Origin: Octopus vulgaris
Taxonomy: Eukaryota
Direction: 5' to 3'
Assembly: GCA_951406725.2 (NCBI GenBank)
Contig: OX597831.1
Coordinates: 67,084,001 to 67,148,000 of the forward strand
Length of the DNA: 64,000 bases
The position numbers and the translations under genes were made by a program. Shown in pieces: positions 3-56,790 of the stretch. The notes beneath the pieces were generated by a model. It did no database searches and was not told where the DNA came from. It saw only the letters and a list, made by a program, of their open reading frames with translations. The number at the start of each line of letters is the position of its first letter. Position 1 is the stretch's first letter.

Positions 3-1136
3 CAGCAGTCTGAACTGTGGCACTGTTCTTACTGCGCTGAAAGCTTTCCTGATGAACTGACACTTCAGCAGCACATGCATAGTGCGCATAATGCTACAAC
101 CTTGCAACCTCCTGCTGATGAGACCTCTGTGCAACGAAGTTCAACACCATTGAGGTGCAGTGAGTGCGGTAAAGATTTTTCGCAGAGTTCTCAATTAGAA
201 GAACATTTCTCTGCATGTCATCAGCCTGCCAGCAAAAAGATTACTTCATCTCCCAGTAATCCTGTTAACACATTGACCCAAAAGTCACCTTTCACGTGTG
301 TCTATTGCGGGAAGGCGTTCAGTCATCGCACTTCTCTCCAGCGCCACATTCGCATCCACACGGGTGACAACCTGTACAAATGCACTCAGTGCAGCAAATC
401 GTTCTGTCAGAAGTCCTCCTACGAGTATCACATTACCATTCACTCGGGAATCAAACCTTATGTGTGTGTCACGTGTGGTAAAGGATTTGCACATCAGTAC
501 GGGTTGCATCGTCATGTACGTACACATGCTGCAGAGGTCGCGGCTGAGGATGCCTCTAACAACTTGAACGTTTTAGTTAAAAAAGAAGACGAGGATGAGG
601 AGGATGACGACGATGACGACGATGATGATGACGACGATGATGATGACAATGATGATGATGACGATGATGAGGACGATGACGATGATAATGATGATGATGA
701 CGACAAAAATAATGGCAATAATAATGATAGCAATAAAAATAACAATATCCAGATGGATACGTTGCAAATGTCAAAATCTGCTTTAATTTCAAATCCTTCC
801 CAAACTGTGTCTAATGGGTCAAAGATAGGTCCTTTGGCGCATCCACCTCACCCATCACACTCCTCACACAGGCATTTACCTATTCATCTTAATCAGTCAC
901 AACAGCAACAACATTCTCAACAAAAACAGCCCTGTTTAAACTCACAGCAAGCACTCCATCATCAGCAGCAGCATCATCACCATCATCAACAACAATCACA
1001 AATTCAGCATCAACATCAACAACAACAACAACAGCAGCAGCAGCAAGTAACTGGACAACAACAGAATTATGACAATGTTGATTTTAACCTTTGTTTGGCT
1101 ACAAATATTTCTATCAACTCCACTTCTACAAGCTGA
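3..1136 (+). CDS. C2H2 zinc-finger protein, 3' part (frame open from the window edge). Five fingers followed by poly-D, N-rich and Q/H-rich low-complexity regions.
   Basis: The frame upstream of the ATG at 75 reads QQSELWHCSYCAESFPDELTLQQHMHSAH (finger 1). Then CSECGKDF..L..H...H and three tandem fingers with HTGDNLY/HSGIKPY linkers. Stop TGA at 1134-1136. Confidence 0.93.
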   Translation, partial: QQSELWHCSYCAESFPDELTLQQHMHSAHNATTLQPPADETSVQRSSTPLRCSECGKDFSQSSQLEEHFSACHQPASKKITSSPSNPVNTLTQKSPFTCVYCGKAFSHRTSLQRHIRIHTGDNLYKCTQCSKSFCQKSSYEYHITIHSGIKPYVCVTCGKGFAHQYGLHRHVRTHAAEVAAEDASNNLNVLVKKEDEDEEDDDDDDDDDDDDDDDNDDDDDDEDDDDDNDDDDDKNNGNNNDSNKNNNIQMDTLQMSKSALISNPSQTVSNGSKIGPLAHPPHPSHSSHRHLPIHLNQSQQQQHSQQKQPCLNSQQALHHQQQHHHHHQQQSQIQHQHQQQQQQQQQQVTGQQQNYDNVDFNLCLATNISINSTSTS

Positions 1137-12859: not shown

Positions 12860-13755
12860 TTCCTCACCCTTAGGGTTGGCACACTCAATGTGGGCACATT
12901 AAAAGGTAGGTCTGGTGAGATTGTTGAGATGTTTAGAAAGAGAGCCCGGATAAGATGCAGTTTGGTTTTGTGCCTGGGAGAAGCATGACTAATGCTATAT
13001 TCCTGGTAAGGCAACATCAAGAGGAGTATTGAGCCAAAAATAAACCTTTGTACTTTGCTTTTGTAGGCCTGGAGAAAGTCTTTGACAGGATTCCCTGCTC
13101 CCTTTTCTGGTGGTCAATGTGGAAGCTATGGATAAATGAGTGGTTGGTGAGAGCTGTACAAGCCATAAACAGGGATGCTGCCGTTAAGGTGAAGGTTGGC
13201 AATGAGTACAGCAATGAATTTAGTGTACAAGTAGTTCGCCAAGGATCATTTCTCGACCCCCTCTTGTTTATCATAGTTCCTCCAGGCATAACAAGGAATT
13301 CAAGACTTGCTGCCCTTAGGAGCTCCTCTACACTGATGACCTTGTTCTTATAGCTGAATCACTATCTACCTAGAGAAGAAATTTCAGATGTGGAAGCAAA
13401 GTCTGGAATCTAAGGGCCTTTAGCAAAGGCCAACGTTCCAGTAAGTAAGACAATAAACAAATCACAGATCCCTTCAGGGAGATGACCCTGCTCAATTTGT
13501 AAGAAGAGTGTTGGTAGAAACAGGAAAGTTAACAGAGAAAATAGTCTTTGTGTGTGGCATATGTGCTGGTATGATAAGCTAGTATGGTCATGTGATGCAC
13601 ATGCATAAGGATTGCTGTGTAAAGAAGTGCTGATCCTTAATTGTGGAGGGAACTTCTGGAAGATGTGGAACAAAGTAGTGAGAAAGGATCATCAGACACT
13701 AGGCCTCCCTGAGAAGATGACAAAGCACCGGGACTTGTGGTGATTTGCTCATCTG
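12860..13755 (+). pseudogene. Heavily deleted RTE-clade LINE (APE endonuclease start, RT fragments)
   Basis: LRVGTLNVGTLKGRSGEIVE (APE N-terminus) and YFAFVGLEKVFDRIP...VRQGSFLDPLLFIIV (RT motifs), with frameshifts and stops. Confidence 0.82.
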
Positions 13756-15180: not shown

Positions 15181-16441
15181 TCAGGTCATCTCACAAGTTC
15201 TGTCAGAATTTTGAATAAAGAAAACAAGTGATCAAATGTTATATTTAACTGAAATTTAATCATCAATGTACTTTCCCTAATTATCTATGACTTCCTTCCA
15301 TCTATTTACAAGTTTTTTAATCCCATCAATGTAAAACTCTTTTGATTTCAAACCAAAGAACTCTGAAATGTCAGTTTTGACCTCCTCCTGGCTTGCGAAA
15401 GTTATGTCCCCCAAATGATTCTGTAAACTACAAAACAAATGGTAGTCTGAAGGAGCAAGGTCAGGAAAATAAGGTGGATGAGGAATTTTTTTCCCAACCA
15501 AGCTCTTTGATCTTCTGTGATGTGATCTTTGCAGTGTGGGGTCATACATTGTCCTGATGAAATATCACTCCTTTTCGATTCACTAAAGCAGGTCTTTTTT
15601 TTCTTCAAAGCTTGGTTCAAATGCTCTAATTGCTGACAGTAGACTTGAGCATTGATTGTTGCATTAGGTGGTAACAATTCAAAGTGAATTACTCCTTTGC
15701 AATCCCACCAGATAGAGAGAAGAACCTTTTTTCCATGAAGTTCCCTTCTCGGTTGTGGTTGAGCTTTTTCCTTTTTACCAAGACACTGTTTATGACTGTT
15801 TTTCATCACCAGTCACAAGTCTATCCAAAAAGGGTGAAATGAGTTCATGAGAATGGAGAGAAGAGCAGATGTCAACTTGGGATTTGCAGTTGCTTTCGGA
15901 CAATTTCTGAGGCACCAATTTTCCAAGTTTAGGACCCTTTCCAACTTGTTGAAGATGACGAAGAGTTGTATGGTTTGAACTAAGCTTTGTCACCAATTCT
16001 TCAACTGATAATGCAGGATTTTCTTCAAGTAATGCCTCAAGGAGCTTATCATCAAGCTCAAATGGACGTCCTTTTTGATTTTCATCTTTTAGGCTGAAAT
16101 CTCCACTTCTGAATTTTGCAAACCATCTGCAAGTTCTTTCATTCAAGCATAAACTGAGTGTATGTTTCGAGTCGCTTCGGCTGCAGAGTTTCCTTTTTGT
16201 ACTCAAAGCATTGTGTGCCCTAAATGCTCTTTGGATACTTCCATATTTTAATCAGGGTTTTAATCAAAGAAAGCGTTTTAATCAAAGAATTCAATTATTC
16301 TGTAAAATAATATTTAATTAGTTTAAATGTACACAAATGAATAAAAATAATTTTTAATTCCATTAGACATTTTAAAATACTATTAAATTTCATTCAATTT
16401 TAAAAAAGGTAAAATCGGACAGAACTTATGGGATGACCTGA
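15181..16441 (-). mobile_element. Mariner (DD34D) DNA transposon, full length, transposase frameshifted
   Basis: TIRs tcaggtcatctcacaagttctgtc / gacagaacttatgggatgacctga with TA flanks. Motifs VTGDE, SIWWD and HPPYFPDLAPSDY. Confidence 0.95.
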
Positions 16442-30480: not shown

Positions 30481-30652
30481 AATACGTCCACCCACTGCAA
30501 ATCTTCACTTAACACATACACAGGTTGAAAGTGGGAAAGCGGACTGATTAAAATTCAAAAATTATTCAGATGGTTTTGGATTGATCAATTTCCGGATTAG
30601 TTTAATCACTTTTCCTTCGTCAGCAAAACATAGTGTATTTGTATCCTACACG

Positions 30653-30807: not shown

Positions 30808-31130
30808 AGAATTCACGAAAAAAACAAAACACGAAGACAGGTGGTGTAGAAAACAAACAGATGTATTAGCATAACGTTCAGGAATAGAAAAAGTCTTTTA
30901 CGTTTCGAGCCTACGCTCTTCTACAGAAAGAGACACAGAAAGAAACAAGGAGAGAAAAAAATGTGTGTAGTGGCTACCGATCTATCATGGCGACTGCCGG
31001 ACAGAAGGGTCACACAGGAGAGCGAAGAAGTAGGGGAGATAACAAAGTAAAGATGATCCACAAAACGAAGGTGCGTGTGTGTGTAAGAGAGTACGTATGT
31101 GCGTGTGAAAGAGGGCTGGTGGTCTTGACG
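30804..31130 (-). mobile_element. Short PLE pLTR-type element with A6U HHR-like motif (30894-30931)
   Basis: Minus strand: tcttt CTGTAGA a gagc gtag gctc GAAA cg TA aaaga. Ends in (TA)n. Confidence 0.7.
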
Positions 31131-31272
31131 GAAAGCATGAGGCGAGAGTTGAGTTTGTCCGTTTTAGATGACAGGGCAAACGTAAGAGGCTTGTGATCAG
31201 TATAGACCACAAAATCTCGACCTTCGAGTTGATGCTGAAAATGACGAACCGATAGATAGACCGCTAGGAGCT
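31130..31272 (-). pseudogene. Ty3/gypsy RNase H fragment
   Basis: ELLAVYLSVRHFQHQLEGRDFVVYTDHKPLTFAL. Confidence 0.85.
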
Positions 31273-31274
31273 CA

Positions 31275-31338
31275 CGATCACGTGAACACACCAGCATCGA
31301 TTGTCAAGTGATATTGAGGGGACAAACACATATACATA

Positions 31339-31682: not shown

Positions 31683-32143
31683 TGCTATTTCCTACACACC
31701 CACTTGGACATTAAAAAAATGTATTGTAAATAGACAAAGGACAGGTAAAAAATGTTACTCGGTGTACAACAAGACGGGGAACAGACACAAAAAGTCCCTA
31801 ATTCTTCGTCAGTTATCAACCAGATGTTATTATTCAGATTCAGTTTCACGTTGATATCTGATGAAGAATTAGTAACGCAGCCCGGCTTTTATTAACAGTA
31901 GATTATTTACATATATATATATATAATAAATTAATAAATAAAACATATGCATATATACATACATATATGTACGTACCTACCTCTACATGTATATATACAT
32001 GCATTTATGAGTACAGGACACCAAAAAAAAAAAAAACGTCGAACACAATGAGAAACGAAAACATAAACACAAAACCAAGGAACTAGACATTTTTCATAAA
32101 CAACGAAAAAATAGAGTACAGGACAAATAACATAAAGAAAATT

Positions 32144-32204
32144 CCCCTTCTTCAGTCGCCATGGTTTCATCTACTCTGCGTTTCGAAGGTGAAGGCGATA
32201 CGCA
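32144..32204 (-). ncRNA. Candidate non-circularly permuted hammerhead ribozyme
   Basis: Minus strand: tgcg TA tcgcc ttca ccttc GAAA cgca gagtagatgaaaccat ggcga CTGAAGA a gggg. Confidence 0.65.
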
Positions 32205-32311
32205 TCTTCAATTGAAACTTTCCTTCCCGCGAAAAGCAAATTAAATAAAATTTGAGATCTTTTTGCGGAGGGGTAAAAACAGGACAGTGACGACGGTATA
32301 TATATATTATC

Positions 32312-32972
32312 AATACACAACTATGAAAGAGAATCCACTATGTGGACACTCTTACGCTAGATATAGATCCGCAAAGGGACTCAACCACTAAGAATTGTTC
32401 TCAAGAAATAATTTGGCACACCAAGAACGTAAGCGAGCAGGACAAATGAAAAATAACGAAAATATAGATTAACCCCATACAATTGTTTCACCGTTAATAA
32501 CTTATGTAATTTTACTTACATAAATATCCTTGGATTGAATGTAACTGTGAATATAATCGGCCGAATTGCTCGGGTCTCTGACCTCGTGTTAATATACAGC
32601 GTGCAGTTCGACAAATTATATTTTATGACGTACTCCACCGATGATCCGATGATATTTATGTAAGTAAAATTACATAATTTATTAACGGTGAAACAATTGT
32701 ATGGGGTTAATCTATATTTTCGTTATTTTTCATTTGTCCTGCTCGATTACGTTCTTAGTATACTAAAATTTTTTCTTGAGAACAATTCTTAGTGGTTGAG
32801 TCCCTTTGCGGATCTATATCTAGCACAAGAGCGTCCACATAGTGGATTCTCTCTCATATTTGTGTATTAATATTTACTGAATCTCAGTCTTTTATGCGCT
32901 AAGCCACTGGTGTTTAAATTGATGTTATTAAATTAATATCCAACTTTTTCACCCTCTTTTTGACTTTAATTT

Positions 32973-33309: not shown

Positions 33310-33485
33310 ATGATGCTGGTGTGTTTACGTCCCCGTCACTTACCGGTTCGACAAAAGAGACAGATAGAATAAGTACTGGGCTTACAAAGAATAAGTCCCG
33401 GGGTCGATTTGCTCGACTAAAGGCGGTGCTCTAGCATGGCCGCAGTCAAATGACTGAAACAAGTAAAAGAGTAAAGAGTAAGAGT
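33310..33485 (+). mobile_element. SINE family 1, 3' half
   Basis: Tail motif present. Confidence 0.8.
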
Positions 33486-33552
33486 ATATATATGGGACAA
33501 GAACGCAAAACATCCAGATAGACGATACAAAAAACACGGACGGGTCATTCGA

Positions 33553-33618
33553 AGCCTTTAATCTTCAGTCAAGAACCGGATCATCCTCGCAATTTCGGCT
33601 GATTAATCTTGAGCTTGC
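33553..33618 (-). ncRNA. Candidate non-circularly permuted hammerhead (cleavage-site U replaced by G in this copy)
   Basis: Minus strand: gcaa GC tcaaga ttaatc agcc GAAA ttgc gaggatgatccggt tcttga CTGAAGA ttaaa ggct. Confidence 0.55.
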
Positions 33619-33637
33619 TCCAATCTGGCCAGCCCCA

Positions 33638-33795
33638 GCTTCTTTCAGTTTCCGTCTACCAAGTCCACTCACAAGGCTTTGGTTTGCTGTGGCTATAGCA
33701 GAAGACACTTGCCCTAGGTTCCACGCGGTGGGACGGAACCCAGAACCTTGTGGTTGGAAAGCAAACTTCTTACCACACAGCCACGCCTGTGCCTA
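33638..33795 (-). mobile_element. SINE family 1, 5' half
   Basis: tRNA-like head and CORE-like accttgggcaagtgtctt motif. Confidence 0.8.
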
Positions 33796-36562: not shown

Positions 36563-37847
36563 TCAGGTCATCCCATAAGTTCTGTTCAAATTTTGAATAA
36601 AGAAAACAAATGATCAATTGTTATATTTAATTGAAATTTAATCATCAATGTACTTTCCCTGATTATCTATGACTTCCTTTCATCTATTTACAAGGTTTTT
36701 AACTCCATCAATGTAAACCACTTTTGGTTTCAAAACGAAGAACTCTGAAATGTCAGTTTCGACCTCCTCCTGGCTTGCGAAAGTTATGTTCCCCAAATGA
36801 TTCTGTAAACTACAAAACAAATTGTAGTCTAAAGGAGCAAGGTCAAGAGAATAAGGTGGATGAGGAATTTTTTCCCAACCAAGCTCTTCGATCTTCTGTG
36901 ATATGATCTTTGCAGTTTGGGGTTGCGCATTGTCCTGATGAAACATCACTCCTTTTCGATTCACTAAAGCGGGTCTTTTTTTTCTTCAAAGCTTGGGTCA
37001 AACGCTCTAATCGCCGTCAAAAGACTTCAACATTGATTGTTGCATTAGGTGGTAACAATTCAAAGTGAATTACTCCTTTGCAATCCCACAAGACAGAGAG
37101 AAGAACCTTTTTTCCATGAAGTTCCCTTCTCGATTGTGGTTGAGCTTTTTCCCTTTTACTAAGCCACTGTTTACGACATTTAACATTTCGATAGAAGATC
37201 CATTTTCGTCACCAGTCACAAGTCTATCCAAAAAGGGTGAAATGAGTTCGTGAGAATGGAGAGAAGAGCAGATGTCAACTCGGGATTTGCGGTTGCTTTC
37301 GGATAATTCATGAGGCACCCATTTTCCAAGTTTAGGAACCTTTCCAACTTATTGAAGATGACGATGAACAGTTGTATGGTTTGAACTAAGCTTTATCGCC
37401 AATTCTTCAACTGATAATGCAGGATTTCCTTCAAGTAATGCCTCAAGGAGTTTATCATCAAACTCAACTGGACGTCCTGTTCGATCTTCATCTTCAAGGC
37501 TGAAATCTCCACTTTTGAATTTTGCAAACCATCTTCTGCACGTTCTTTCATTCAAGCATTCTTTCTCATAAACTGAGTGTATGTTTCGAGTCGCTTCGGC
37601 TGAAGAGTTTCCTTTTTTGTACTCATAAAGCATTAAGTGCCTTGAATGCTCTTTGGGTACTTCCATATTTTAATCAGGGTTTTAATCAATAATAGAATTA
37701 TTATTCTGTAAAATAATATTTAATTAGTTTAAATGTACACAAATACATAAAAAGAATTTTTAATTCCATTAGACATTCTAAAATACTATTAAATTTCATT
37801 CAATTTTAAAAAAGGTAAAATCGGACAGAACTTAAGGGATTATCTGA
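36563..37847 (-). mobile_element. Mariner (DD34D), second copy of the 15181-16441 family
   Basis: Same TIRs. MEVPKEHSRHLMLYEYKKG, VTGDE, FHQDNA and HPPYSLDLAPLDY, with frameshifts and stops. Confidence 0.95.
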
Positions 37848-46403: not shown

Positions 46404-46751
46404 ATGTCTTGCGAACAACTTGCACCTACAAGTTCTACCAATCAAAAACTCCGCATACCGGAAGCCAGCAAGTGTATGGGGTCATCAGGAGAGAATGCGC
46501 GCCGTTTCGGGGCCTACCTCTCGACGGCATCAATGCGCACTGATATGAGGCCCTGCTTGCTAGATCAGCTTGTTATCAAATAAAGTTCAATATCCTTCTA
46601 GCCATCGCTCATCGTCTCTTTTTAACCAAATCCAGTGGCTAGCCTTCTCCACTGCAGATTGGATATCGGTCATGGTGGTATTGACTTTACGATGAGTTAG
46701 GCCTAGCGATAACAACGGTCGTCTCACACTGTGTCCAACGAATCCTCTGAG
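46404..46751 (-). mobile_element. 5'-truncated Hero-like RLE LINE with 24-bp TSD
   Basis: RGFVGHSVRRPLLSLGL...AVEKASHWIWLKR. TSD tctgtggaatccaaagctactgag at 46380-46403 and 46752-46775. Confidence 0.82.
46474..46528 (-). ncRNA. Candidate non-circularly permuted hammerhead ribozyme with intact core, in the LINE 3' UTR
   Basis: Minus strand: gccg TC gagag gtaggcccc GAAA cggc gcgcatt ctctc CTGATGA ccccatac. Confidence 0.75.
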
Positions 46752-55522: not shown

Positions 55523-56790
55523 TCAGGTTGAGTAAAAAGTAAGCAGCGTTTTGAACCATGACCCATGAACAATGCAGTATTAAGCATTTTTTAAAAATAT
55601 TTTTTGCAATTGTCTGATAATACAGACATAGATTTGCCAAAACGCATCAATAAATTAACATTGATATTTTTTTCGCTGTTGTTACAATCATCTGAAATTG
55701 AACTTTCAAGGCGCAATATTCGAGCAATTTTGTCATTCAACTTAAAAAAAAGGACGTAAAGCTGATGAAACTGCTCGCGATATCAACGAAACGTTTGGTG
55801 AGGAAATGACCAGTGAGTGGTCAGCTTGAAAATGCTTTAAACGATTTTGCAGTGGAGACCTGAACCTTGAAGATCGTGGGCGTAGTGGACACCCGGCTGT
55901 CATCGATGACGGTCAATTAAAGACCATCATTGAGAAAGATGCACGTAAAACCACTCAAGAACTGGCAAACGAACTTCAAGTGATCCAGAAAACTGCTTGC
56001 AACTTTTTGCATGCAATCAGAAAATCAAAAAAGCTCGACAAATGGGTACCACCTGATTTGAATGAAAATCAGAAAATGCGCAGATATGAAATTTGTTCGT
56101 CGCTTCTTCTCCATAACCAGACCGGTCCATTTTTCGCCCGTATTGTAACTTGCGAGGTAAAATGGATTCTGTATAATAATAAAAAAAACAAACATTCTTC
56201 ACAGCGGTTGGATCGAAATGAAGCACCAAAAACATTTCTTAAGCCCGAGCTATTCAAAAAGGTTATAGTGACTGTTTGGTGGTGTACTGCTGGACTTCTT
56301 TAGAACCCGGAAAAACCATTACTGCAGAAACATATTGCCATGAAATTGCCAAAATATATGAAAAACTGTTACTCCTCTATCCCAGACTCGTCAACAGAAG
56401 AGGGCCAATCGTTCTTCATGACAATGCTCAACCACACGTTTCACCAATTATGCTCCAGAAGTTGAAGGAACTTGGCTACGAGGTTCTTCCCCACCCAGCT
56501 TCTTCCCCAGACCTTTCTCCTATCGATTACCACTTCTTCAAGTACCGTGATGGTTTCCTGCGAGAGAAGGAGCTAAAAAATCAAACCGATGTTGAAAGGG
56601 CGTTCAAAGAGTTCATCAGCTTCAGAACTCCATATTTGTATGTAACCGGAATAAACAAACTTGCAACTCGTTAACAAAAATGTGTTGATTGTAATGGTAC
56701 TTACTTTGATGAATAAAATTTCCACATTGTTGAAATATATTGTGATGAATTTCATGTTTCAAAACGTTGCTTACTTTTTACTCAGCCTGA
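55523..56790 (+). mobile_element. Mariner (second family), full length, transposase disrupted
   Basis: TIRs tcaggttgagtaaaaagtaagcagcgttttgaa / ttcaaaacgttgcttactttttactcagcctga with TA TSD. Motifs WVPPDL, VTCE, LHDNAQPH and SSPDLSPIDY. Confidence 0.95.

What the first reader, a model, noticed from the sequence alone, without database searches (positions are those of the whole stretch)
33553..33618. Third C-B-A permuted hammerhead family (this copy probably inactivated)
Seen: minus strand [GCAA-GC-UCAAGA] uuaauc [AGCC-GAAA-UUGC] 14 nt [UCUUGA-CUGAAGA] uuaaa [GGCU]. Stem I is 6 bp, stem III 4 bp, and stem II 4 bp after a 5-nt insertion. The required U16.1 is G here. Three motifs with different stems but the same unusual strand order within 15 kb are unlikely to be chance. 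Inference: they point to a common, unannotated class of rearranged ribozymes in this genome.
Basis: partly seen in the sequence, partly recalled or inferred. Interest (0 to 1): 0.75.

Follow-up and report, generated by a model that had tools for sequence, protein, structure and literature searches.

The report
Rearranged hammerhead ribozyme in retrotransposon tails
This is a truncated copy of a very abundant animal repeat whose tail carries the hammerhead ribozyme core in a scrambled order; the same layout, with matched base-pair changes, recurs in the tails of two unrelated kinds of retrotransposon and likely marks an undescribed form of self-cutting RNA, although this copy's own subfamily likely no longer cuts.

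Summary
The motif is real: the minus strand 33618-33553 has hammerhead blocks in the order site-GAAA-CUGAnGA (type SGC of Eckert 2023), with G at 16.1. (1) Stem II likely pairs with an upstream strand (33634-33629), not with the GGCU after a '5-nt insertion', and a second helix joins stems I and II; the chain is opened between A9 and G10.1. (2) G16.1 is not private damage: no other letter reaches 6% there in four runs, so the subfamily carries it; one sister contig has U16.1 with a compensated stem III. The opened layout recurs in two other window repeats, in 3' UTRs of RT-encoding non-LTR retrotransposons (23 of 80 loci have the SGC core, 1 antisense hit; upstream stem II covaries, 0 of 20000 permutations) and, read by eye, in 10 published Naiad consensus sequences whose 'half cores' were unexplained; 7 nematode Naiads carry type CSG. 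No paper found reports this. Cleavage is untested. Verdict: likely a new hammerhead topology widespread in retrotransposon tails; this copy likely inactive.

The parts
33494..33637 (-). Element A: 5'-truncated 3' end (144 nt) of a high-copy repeat, ending in (TA)n
   Evidence: Single copy in window; 5568/3438/2034/976 contigs laid in four runs, family continues upstream of 33637 in 73/39/47/18 contigs
33629..33634 (-). Stem II 5' strand (G10.1 = 33634), lying upstream of the cleavage block
   Evidence: 5 WC + 1 GU with 33602-33597; duplex -8.3 vs -5.0 kcal/mol for the downstream alternative; 20 nt from 16.1, inside the 19-21 nt seen in 15 of 23 motifs
33622..33628 (-). 5' strand of helix Px (stem I-II interaction)
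   Evidence: 6 of 7 pairs with 33582-33576; a variant at 33578 (7-14% in four runs) restores the seventh
33615..33618 (-). Stem III 3' strand GCAA
   Evidence: Pairs with UUGC 33592-33589; one sister contig reads GUAA and a co-frequent variant reads UUAC
33613..33614 (-). G16.1 and C17; predicted cut would lie between 33613 and 33612
   Evidence: Sequence; no variant row at 33614
33607..33612 (-). Stem I 5' strand UCAAGA
   Evidence: 6 WC pairs with 33574-33569
33597..33602 (-). Stem II 3' strand (C11.1 = 33597)
33589..33596 (-). GAAA core and stem III 5' strand UUGC
   Evidence: GAAA without variant rows
33576..33582 (-). 3' strand of helix Px
33562..33574 (-). Stem I 3' strand UCUUGA and CUGAAGA core
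   Evidence: loose-end consensus lines show N7 = G (39 contigs) and N7 = U (9 contigs) with the rest of CUGAnGA kept
33553..33561 (-).
   Evidence: Most variable stretch of the motif; P0 shown by covariation in related motifs; partner for A read by eye from a loose-end consensus only (weak)
33638..33795 (-). 5' part of a SINE-like repeat fused to the truncated end of element A
   Evidence: 80-89% identity to several window copies; junction absent or at depth about 2 in the four runs, so a one-off chimera
33312..33493 (+). 3' part of the same SINE-like family in opposite orientation, whose (TA)n end holds element A
32149..32226 (-). Motif B: same opened layout with U16.1, behind a 565-bp inverted repeat (32308-32872)
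46482..46554 (-). Motif C: same opened layout with U16.1, in the 3' UTR of a truncated non-LTR retrotransposon (about 46404-46746) flanked by a 29-nt direct repeat

Best explanation
The stretch is the truncated 3' end of a high-copy repeat, likely a retrotransposon, that carries a hammerhead core in the order site-GAAA-CUGAnGA and is predicted to fold with its chain opened between A9 and G10.1; relatives with U16.1 likely cut their own RNA, while this subfamily, which has G16.1, likely does not. Predicted fold, 5' to 3': [P0 5'] [stem II 5'] [Px 5'] [stem III 3'] N16.1 H17 [stem I 5'] short link [stem II 3'] GAAA [stem III 5'] [Px 3'] [stem I 3'] CUGAnGA [P0 3']. It is a circular permutation of type CSG/SGC, opened at a link that Eckert 2023 assumed could not be broken. 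Shown: the layout and its covariation in related elements, and G16.1 as the subfamily letter. Inferred: catalysis; the role. Most likely role (inferred): the cut trims read-through or tandem transcripts near the element's 3' end; because P0, II, Px and III all join the two products, the halves would stay paired, so reverse transcription could still copy the whole tail, and the fold probably also serves as the 3' end signal. A non-cutting G16.1 lineage could then still be copied, as this one was.
For:: 23 of 80 loci with related ORF ends have a strict core (U16.1, stems I and III) 95-602 nt past the protein match on the sense strand, all 23 in SGC order; 1 antisense hit. 7 of 8 ORFs tested have Pfam RVT_1. 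(23 distinct motifs = 20 loci + 3 window): upstream stem II self-score 4.70 vs 2.76 when partners are swapped (0 of 20000 permutations), downstream 2.96 vs 2.80 (P 0.22); upstream partner of 4 or more pairs in 19 of 23, 17 different stem II sequences; G at 10.1 in 19 of 20; Px 6.07 vs 4.26 (0 of 20000). P0 9.2 vs 6.0 (n 18, 0 of 20000); full motif in 14 loci sense, 0 antisense, 0 in 30 shuffles. For A itself: variants hit 2 of 59 structured vs 7 of 23 linker positions (Fisher p 0.0015; the model was drawn after seeing the table); N7 varies A/G/U; a variant loses the downstream GGCU; one contig has U16.1 with A-U for G-C in stem III. 55-78% of plateau depth runs through 16.1 with G. G at the first H of the NHH triplet blocks cleavage in minimal hammerheads (PMC3923133, passages). 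By eye, the opened form is in 10 and type CSG in 7 Naiad consensus sequences of Craig 2021.
Against: No cleavage data for any opened motif. A break between A9 and G10.1 is outside every tested natural hammerhead I read about. Stems I and III in the loci pair by construction of my scan; the permutation tests do not correct for kinship. 57 of 80 loci had no strict core (6 lacked 100 nt downstream; many are distant or decayed); 3 of the 23 distinct motifs (L037, L039, L041) have no upstream partner and only a 2-bp stem II after CUGAnGA. In A the downstream GGCU can also pair (4 bp) and shows no variant row at 6%. U16.1 in family A rests on one contig; 22-45% of the family's depth cannot be read at 16.1. 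No ORF links element A to a named retrotransposon family. The minimum-energy fold of A is no better than shuffles (z +0.86; pseudoknots are not modelled).
Confidence: 0.7

Rival explanations
1. One reading: an ordinary type-SGC hammerhead with stem II formed by the downstream GGCU after a 5-nt insertion, and this single copy inactivated by a private U-to-G change.
For: The 4-bp downstream stem exists and has no variant row; one loose-end line reads CUGAUGA followed by AAG, which could bring GGCU to 2 nt from A9 in that subfamily; L037, L039, L041 look like plain SGC with a 2-bp stem II.
Against: No other letter at 33614 in four runs; a 39-contig loose-end line replaces GGCU by AACU; downstream pairing does not covary across related motifs (P 0.22); Eckert 2023 saw no insertions over 1-2 nt there.
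Confidence: 0.07
2. G16.1 is tolerated: the extra helices hold the core so well that the A15.1-G16.1 form still cuts, and the whole family is active.
For: The G16.1 subfamily is the most abundant and keeps core and stems almost free of variants; tertiary-stabilised hammerheads tolerate G17 (PMC3884650, passages and abstract start); natural U15.1-A16.1 variants cut.
Against: 0 of 23 strict and 0 of the 3 relaxed SGC-order locus hits have G16.1 (the strict scan demands U); NHH rule; variants cannot be phased to the G16.1 lineage.
Confidence: 0.1
3. The fold is a hammerhead-derived but non-catalytic 3' end signal (reverse-transcriptase binding or end protection) in all these elements.
For: New copies keep the whole motif although a cut would separate it from the ORF; a G16.1 lineage amplified strongly; many Naiads lack it (bivalve and hemichordate tails).
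Against: Every catalytic base (CUGAnGA, GAAA, UH, G10.1-C11.1) is kept while all stems vary, which a binding role alone would not need.
Confidence: 0.1
4. Chance arrangement of short motifs in repeat-rich DNA.
For: Short stems; my scan also returns 9 other core-like hits of other orders in the window.
Against: Shuffle and strand controls and partner-swap tests.
Confidence: 0.03

Closest known systems
Type-SGC and type-CSG hammerhead ribozymes (Eckert et al. 2023, PMC10085705)
   Same: Block order site-GAAA-CUGAnGA; short link from stem I 5' strand to stem II 3' strand; an extra helix joining stems I and II; all core bases.
   Different: Stem II 5' strand and the I-II helix strand come from upstream of the site instead of following CUGAnGA; a further helix P0 starts after A9; found in retrotransposon tails, whereas the paper's examples come from a screen near metatranscriptomic hairpin ribozymes and its supplement has no hit for Octopus or Metazoa. 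Its SGC descriptors require CUGAUGAG or CUGAUGAUG directly followed by stem II and would miss this form. This copy has G16.1.
'HHR_core' and 'HHR_half_core' of Naiad Penelope-like elements (Craig et al. 2021, PMC8557442)
   Same: CUGAnGA in the 3' UTR with GAAA 35-50 nt away on either side; (TA)n targets; by eye the published consensus tails contain this opened layout (10 records) or type CSG (7 records).
   Different: The paper concluded that Naiads lack canonical hammerheads and proposed no structure. Element A is not among its consensus sequences (0 hits for three short motifs) and has no ORF here.
Type I hammerheads of canonical Penelope-like elements and animal retrozymes (as described)
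   Same: Hammerhead core near the 3' end of a retroelement; proposed job of cutting long precursor RNAs.
   Different: Those are circular permutation type I (CGS) without core pseudoknots; one such motif lies at 30623 in this window.

Membership tests
Hammerhead ribozyme | CUGAnGA and GAAA core | tested here: met
   33568-33562 and 33596-33593; no variant rows; N7 varies in loose ends
Hammerhead ribozyme | Stems I, II, III flanking the core, G10.1-C11.1 | tested here: met
   6, 6 and 4 pairs; covariation in related motifs
Hammerhead ribozyme | A15.1-U16.1 and H17 (NUH/NHH site) | tested here: not met
   G16.1 in this copy and its subfamily; met in motifs B, C and 23 loci (U demanded by the scan)
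Hammerhead ribozyme | Self-cleavage 3' of H17 | not testable with these tools
   Only contigs were available
Type-SGC hammerhead (Eckert 2023) | Block order S, G, C | tested here: met
Type-SGC hammerhead (Eckert 2023) | Block C uninterrupted: stem II strand within 1-2 nt after CUGAnGA | tested here: not met
   No pair at 0-2 nt in A; class-wide the partner is upstream
Type-SGC hammerhead (Eckert 2023) | Helix joining the far sides of stems I and II | tested here: met
   Px, 6 of 7 pairs in A; 6.07 vs 4.26 across 23 motifs
Rfam hammerhead families (types I, II, III) | Match at gathering score | tested here: not met
   0 in window, 0 in 10 of the 23 loci tested
Penelope-like element (host of motif A) | RT and GIY-YIG ORF | tested here: inconclusive
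   No ORF in this copy; no genome held; no locus found for the motif pattern
Penelope-like element (host of motif A) | (TA)n target and 30-40 bp repeated tail | tested here: met
   (TA)n at 33493 and in loose ends before 33492-33493; 23-37 extra tail letters in many contigs (tables 5c, 7); features as described. Suggestive, not diagnostic
Non-LTR retrotransposon with C-terminal endonuclease (host of motif C; clade name HERO is recalled, from no call) | RT ORF ending just upstream, target-site duplication | tested here: met
   C-terminal peptide has relatives whose loci encode RVT_1; 29-nt direct repeat around the insertion

The most novel reading that the evidence does not exclude
A seventh hammerhead topology, opened between A9 and G10.1 and closed by an extra helix, is a common self-cleaving element of retrotransposon 3' ends across Naiad Penelope-like elements and RT-endonuclease LINEs; together with type CSG in nematode Naiads it makes non-circularly permuted hammerheads abundant in animal genomes and explains the 'missing' ribozymes of Naiads.
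Probability: 0.65. Interest if true: 0.88.

Novelty: new variant of a known kind. Interest (0 to 1): 0.78.

Why it matters
Non-circularly permuted hammerheads were known from one paper, with only two CSG sequences, under the stated assumption that the CUGAnGA block cannot be split. If these motifs cut, that assumption falls, the number of such ribozymes rises by thousands of genomic copies, current descriptors and Rfam models are shown to miss a whole class, and the open remark that Naiads 'lack canonical HHR' gets a testable answer. A topology in which four helices hold the two products together also bears on why a retrotransposon can carry a cutter in the tail it must copy. The flagged copy itself is probably a dead member, but it points to a natural contrast (G16.1 versus U16.1 subfamilies) for testing whether cutting matters for mobility.

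Tried and rejected
No whole genome was held. No second copy of element A in the window. A pattern for family A found 0 loci in metagenome, viral and prokaryote collections. The ORF-end alignment gave 0 loci in viral contigs. No RNA holder was listed on record; X7 is only guessed to be RNA, so neither expression nor the lower share of the stem III variant there (3% vs 12-18%) is used as evidence. Peptides upstream of motif B found no informative relatives, so B's family is unnamed. A shifted register for A (C16.1, U17) was rejected: it breaks stem III and conflicts with the compensated sister contig. The inverted repeat at 31798-31872 with CUGAnGA on both strands did not pass the core scan. MFE folding of A is uninformative. 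A protein tree of 18 ORF ends was poorly resolved and the MAFFT alignment of 13 motifs was too loose for pair counts; neither is used. Earlier-findings look-ups by place, sequence and full word set returned nothing. Kore 1998 was not held; the NHH rule is cited from PMC3923133.

Full report
Observation. In the nomenclature of Eckert et al. 2023 (PMC10085705; I read the introduction, sections 7, 13-16, most of 18 and supplement passages) this order is type SGC. A scan for core plus stems I and III gave 12 hits in the window, three in SGC order, at 46488, 33568 and 32155; 60 shuffles gave 0.28 SGC cores on average and never three. Rfam finds nothing.

Setting. The DNA is AT-rich, full of TA/TG microsatellites, SINE-like repeats and mariner fragments: an animal genome; that the SINEs look like those of octopus is recalled and comes from no call. 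The motif lies in a 144-nt piece (33637-33494) with no other copy in the window, between the 5' part of a SINE-like repeat on the same strand and the (TA)n end of another on the opposite strand. In four public runs of four coded organisms 5568, 3438, 2034 and 976 contigs lay on it; the family continues upstream of 33637 (73, 39, 47, 18 contigs), and the SINE junction is absent or at depth about 2. So this is a 5'-truncated copy of a very abundant repeat, fused once to a SINE head. Its (TA)n target and repeated tail resemble Penelope-like elements, but no ORF names the parent.

G16.1 is the subfamily letter. One search lists 16 variant rows at 6% or more; none is at 33614. Rows with a distance of 24 letters from the aligned end were counted elsewhere, so the position was readable. 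After correcting for the edge ramp, 55-78% of plateau depth runs through this region; the rest diverges there and cannot be read. One contig of that rest reads GUAA-U-C-UCAAGA on the minus strand, and a variant at 33590 (12-18% in the three larger runs) turns UUGC into UUAC: a sister form with U16.1 and a compensated pair, resting on one contig. G at the first H of the NHH triplet blocks minimal hammerheads (PMC3923133, passages).

Stem II comes from upstream. GGCUGG at 33634-33629 pairs with the strand before GAAA better than the downstream GGCU (-8.3 vs -5.0 kcal/mol) and is followed at once by a strand that pairs with 33582-33576, next to stem I (Px; a 7-14% variant mends its one mismatch). 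A 39-contig loose-end line keeps CUGAGGA but replaces the downstream GGCU by AACU. Against this: the downstream GGCU has no variant row, and one loose-end line might place it 2 nt from A9. Variants fall on 2 of 59 structured and 7 of 23 linker positions (p 0.0015; post hoc).

Independent elements. Motif C follows an ORF end with relatives in databases. An alignment of 46 of those 75 relatives fetched 80 loci; 7 of 8 ORFs tested carry Pfam RVT_1. 23 of 80 loci hold a strict core on the sense strand past the ORF, all in SGC order, against 1 antisense hit. After removing 3 duplicates and adding the 3 window motifs (n 23), swapping partners among motifs shows the upstream strand is specific to its own stem II (4.70 vs 2.76, 0 of 20000) and the downstream stretch is not (2.96 vs 2.80, P 0.22); Px is specific too (6.07 vs 4.26). 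With L037, L039, L041 left out (no upstream partner, 2-bp downstream stem) and motif C's register set by hand, 10.1 is G in 19 of 20. A further helix P0 joins the bases after A9 to a strand upstream of 10.1 (9.2 vs 6.0, n 18 after also dropping L019, whose contig ends, and A, which is truncated; it starts directly after A9 in 10 of 18). The full motif scored in 14 loci, 0 antisense, 0 in 30 shuffles; in the window 2 (C misses by an A-C at 10.1) against 0.03. These tests do not correct for kinship, and stems I and III pair by construction. Ten motif-bearing loci gave no Rfam match.

Published consensus sequences. Craig et al. 2021 (PMC8557442; passages and supplement passages) reported that Naiads lack canonical hammerheads but that some have a core, or a 'half core' with the second half 35-50 nt away on either side. 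I saw the last 250-400 nt of 53 of 54 Naiad records plus some motif-centred passages and paired them by eye only. The opened layout is present in 10 (Bfor with a 2-bp stem I, 3_Chem, 2_Movir, Amil, Aacu, Anas, EuTe, Obim, Ovul, Esco, the last weaker), and clean type CSG with different stems in 7 nematode records (Nbra-1, -2, -3, Hcon, Hpol, Asuum, one Pristionchus). The opened form is type CSG circularly permuted at the A9-G10.1 link. The other records showed no such motif in the part seen; bivalve and hemichordate tails share a different motif.

Mechanism. Shown: layout, covariation, conserved catalytic bases, position near the 3' end, G16.1 in this subfamily. From established hammerhead chemistry (recalled): G12 and G8 act as base and acid, and the A9-G10.1 step is where natural one-base insertions occur. 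Inferred: U16.1 members cut 3' of H17; P0, II, Px and III all span the cut, so the products would stay paired and the tail could still be copied; the cut likely trims read-through or tandem transcripts, the role proposed for Penelope hammerheads. This copy lacks both U16.1 and the upstream P0 strand and is likely inactive.

Novelty. Searches found no report of SGC, CSG or an opened form in retrotransposons; 'type-SGC' occurs only in Eckert 2023, whose descriptors need stem II directly after CUGAUGA(U)G. Passages of PMC13725137, PMC10162972 and two 2026 preprints describe types I-III or cite Eckert. Not seen: subscription papers, Weinberg 2015, Cervera 2014, Luense 2017, Repbase or Dfam notes, and the preprints' supplements; any of these may bear on the claim. 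Verdict: new variant of a known kind, interest 0.78.

Noticed in passing
window 30640-30570 (minus; CUGACGA at 30623): Canonical type I (CGS) hammerhead-like motif with 6-bp stem I and palindromic stem III, next to a TG/TA microsatellite, like the minimal motifs of Penelope-like elements.
   Followed up: no
window 25360 (+) and 20503 (-): Two identical copies of a weak CGS-order core in an inverted duplication between about 20.5 and 25.4 kb.
   Followed up: no
window 31798-31872: 23-nt inverted repeat carrying CUGAnGA on both strands with a GAAA between; did not pass the core scan.
   Followed up: partly
window 32308-32872: 565-bp inverted repeat (85% identity) directly upstream of motif B, like the inverted 5' copies of Penelope-like insertions; peptides gave no informative relatives.
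   Followed up: partly
L037, L039, L040, L041 (3' UTRs, 370-602 nt past the protein match): A separate clade (100/100 support) with SGC core, long stem III and only a 2-bp stem II after CUGAnGA; possibly plain type SGC and a link between the two forms.
   Followed up: partly
Craig 2021 File S5, nematode Naiads: Seven clean type-CSG hammerheads with different stems; Eckert 2023 knew two CSG sequences.
   Followed up: partly
   Followed up: no
window 3-1133 (+): ORF with C2H2 zinc fingers and a glutamine-rich stretch.
   Followed up: no
window 15405-16251, 37352-37669, 55830-56671; 31013-31303; 13033-13350: Mariner-type transposase fragments, an RT-RNase H fragment and a weak RT fragment.
   Followed up: no
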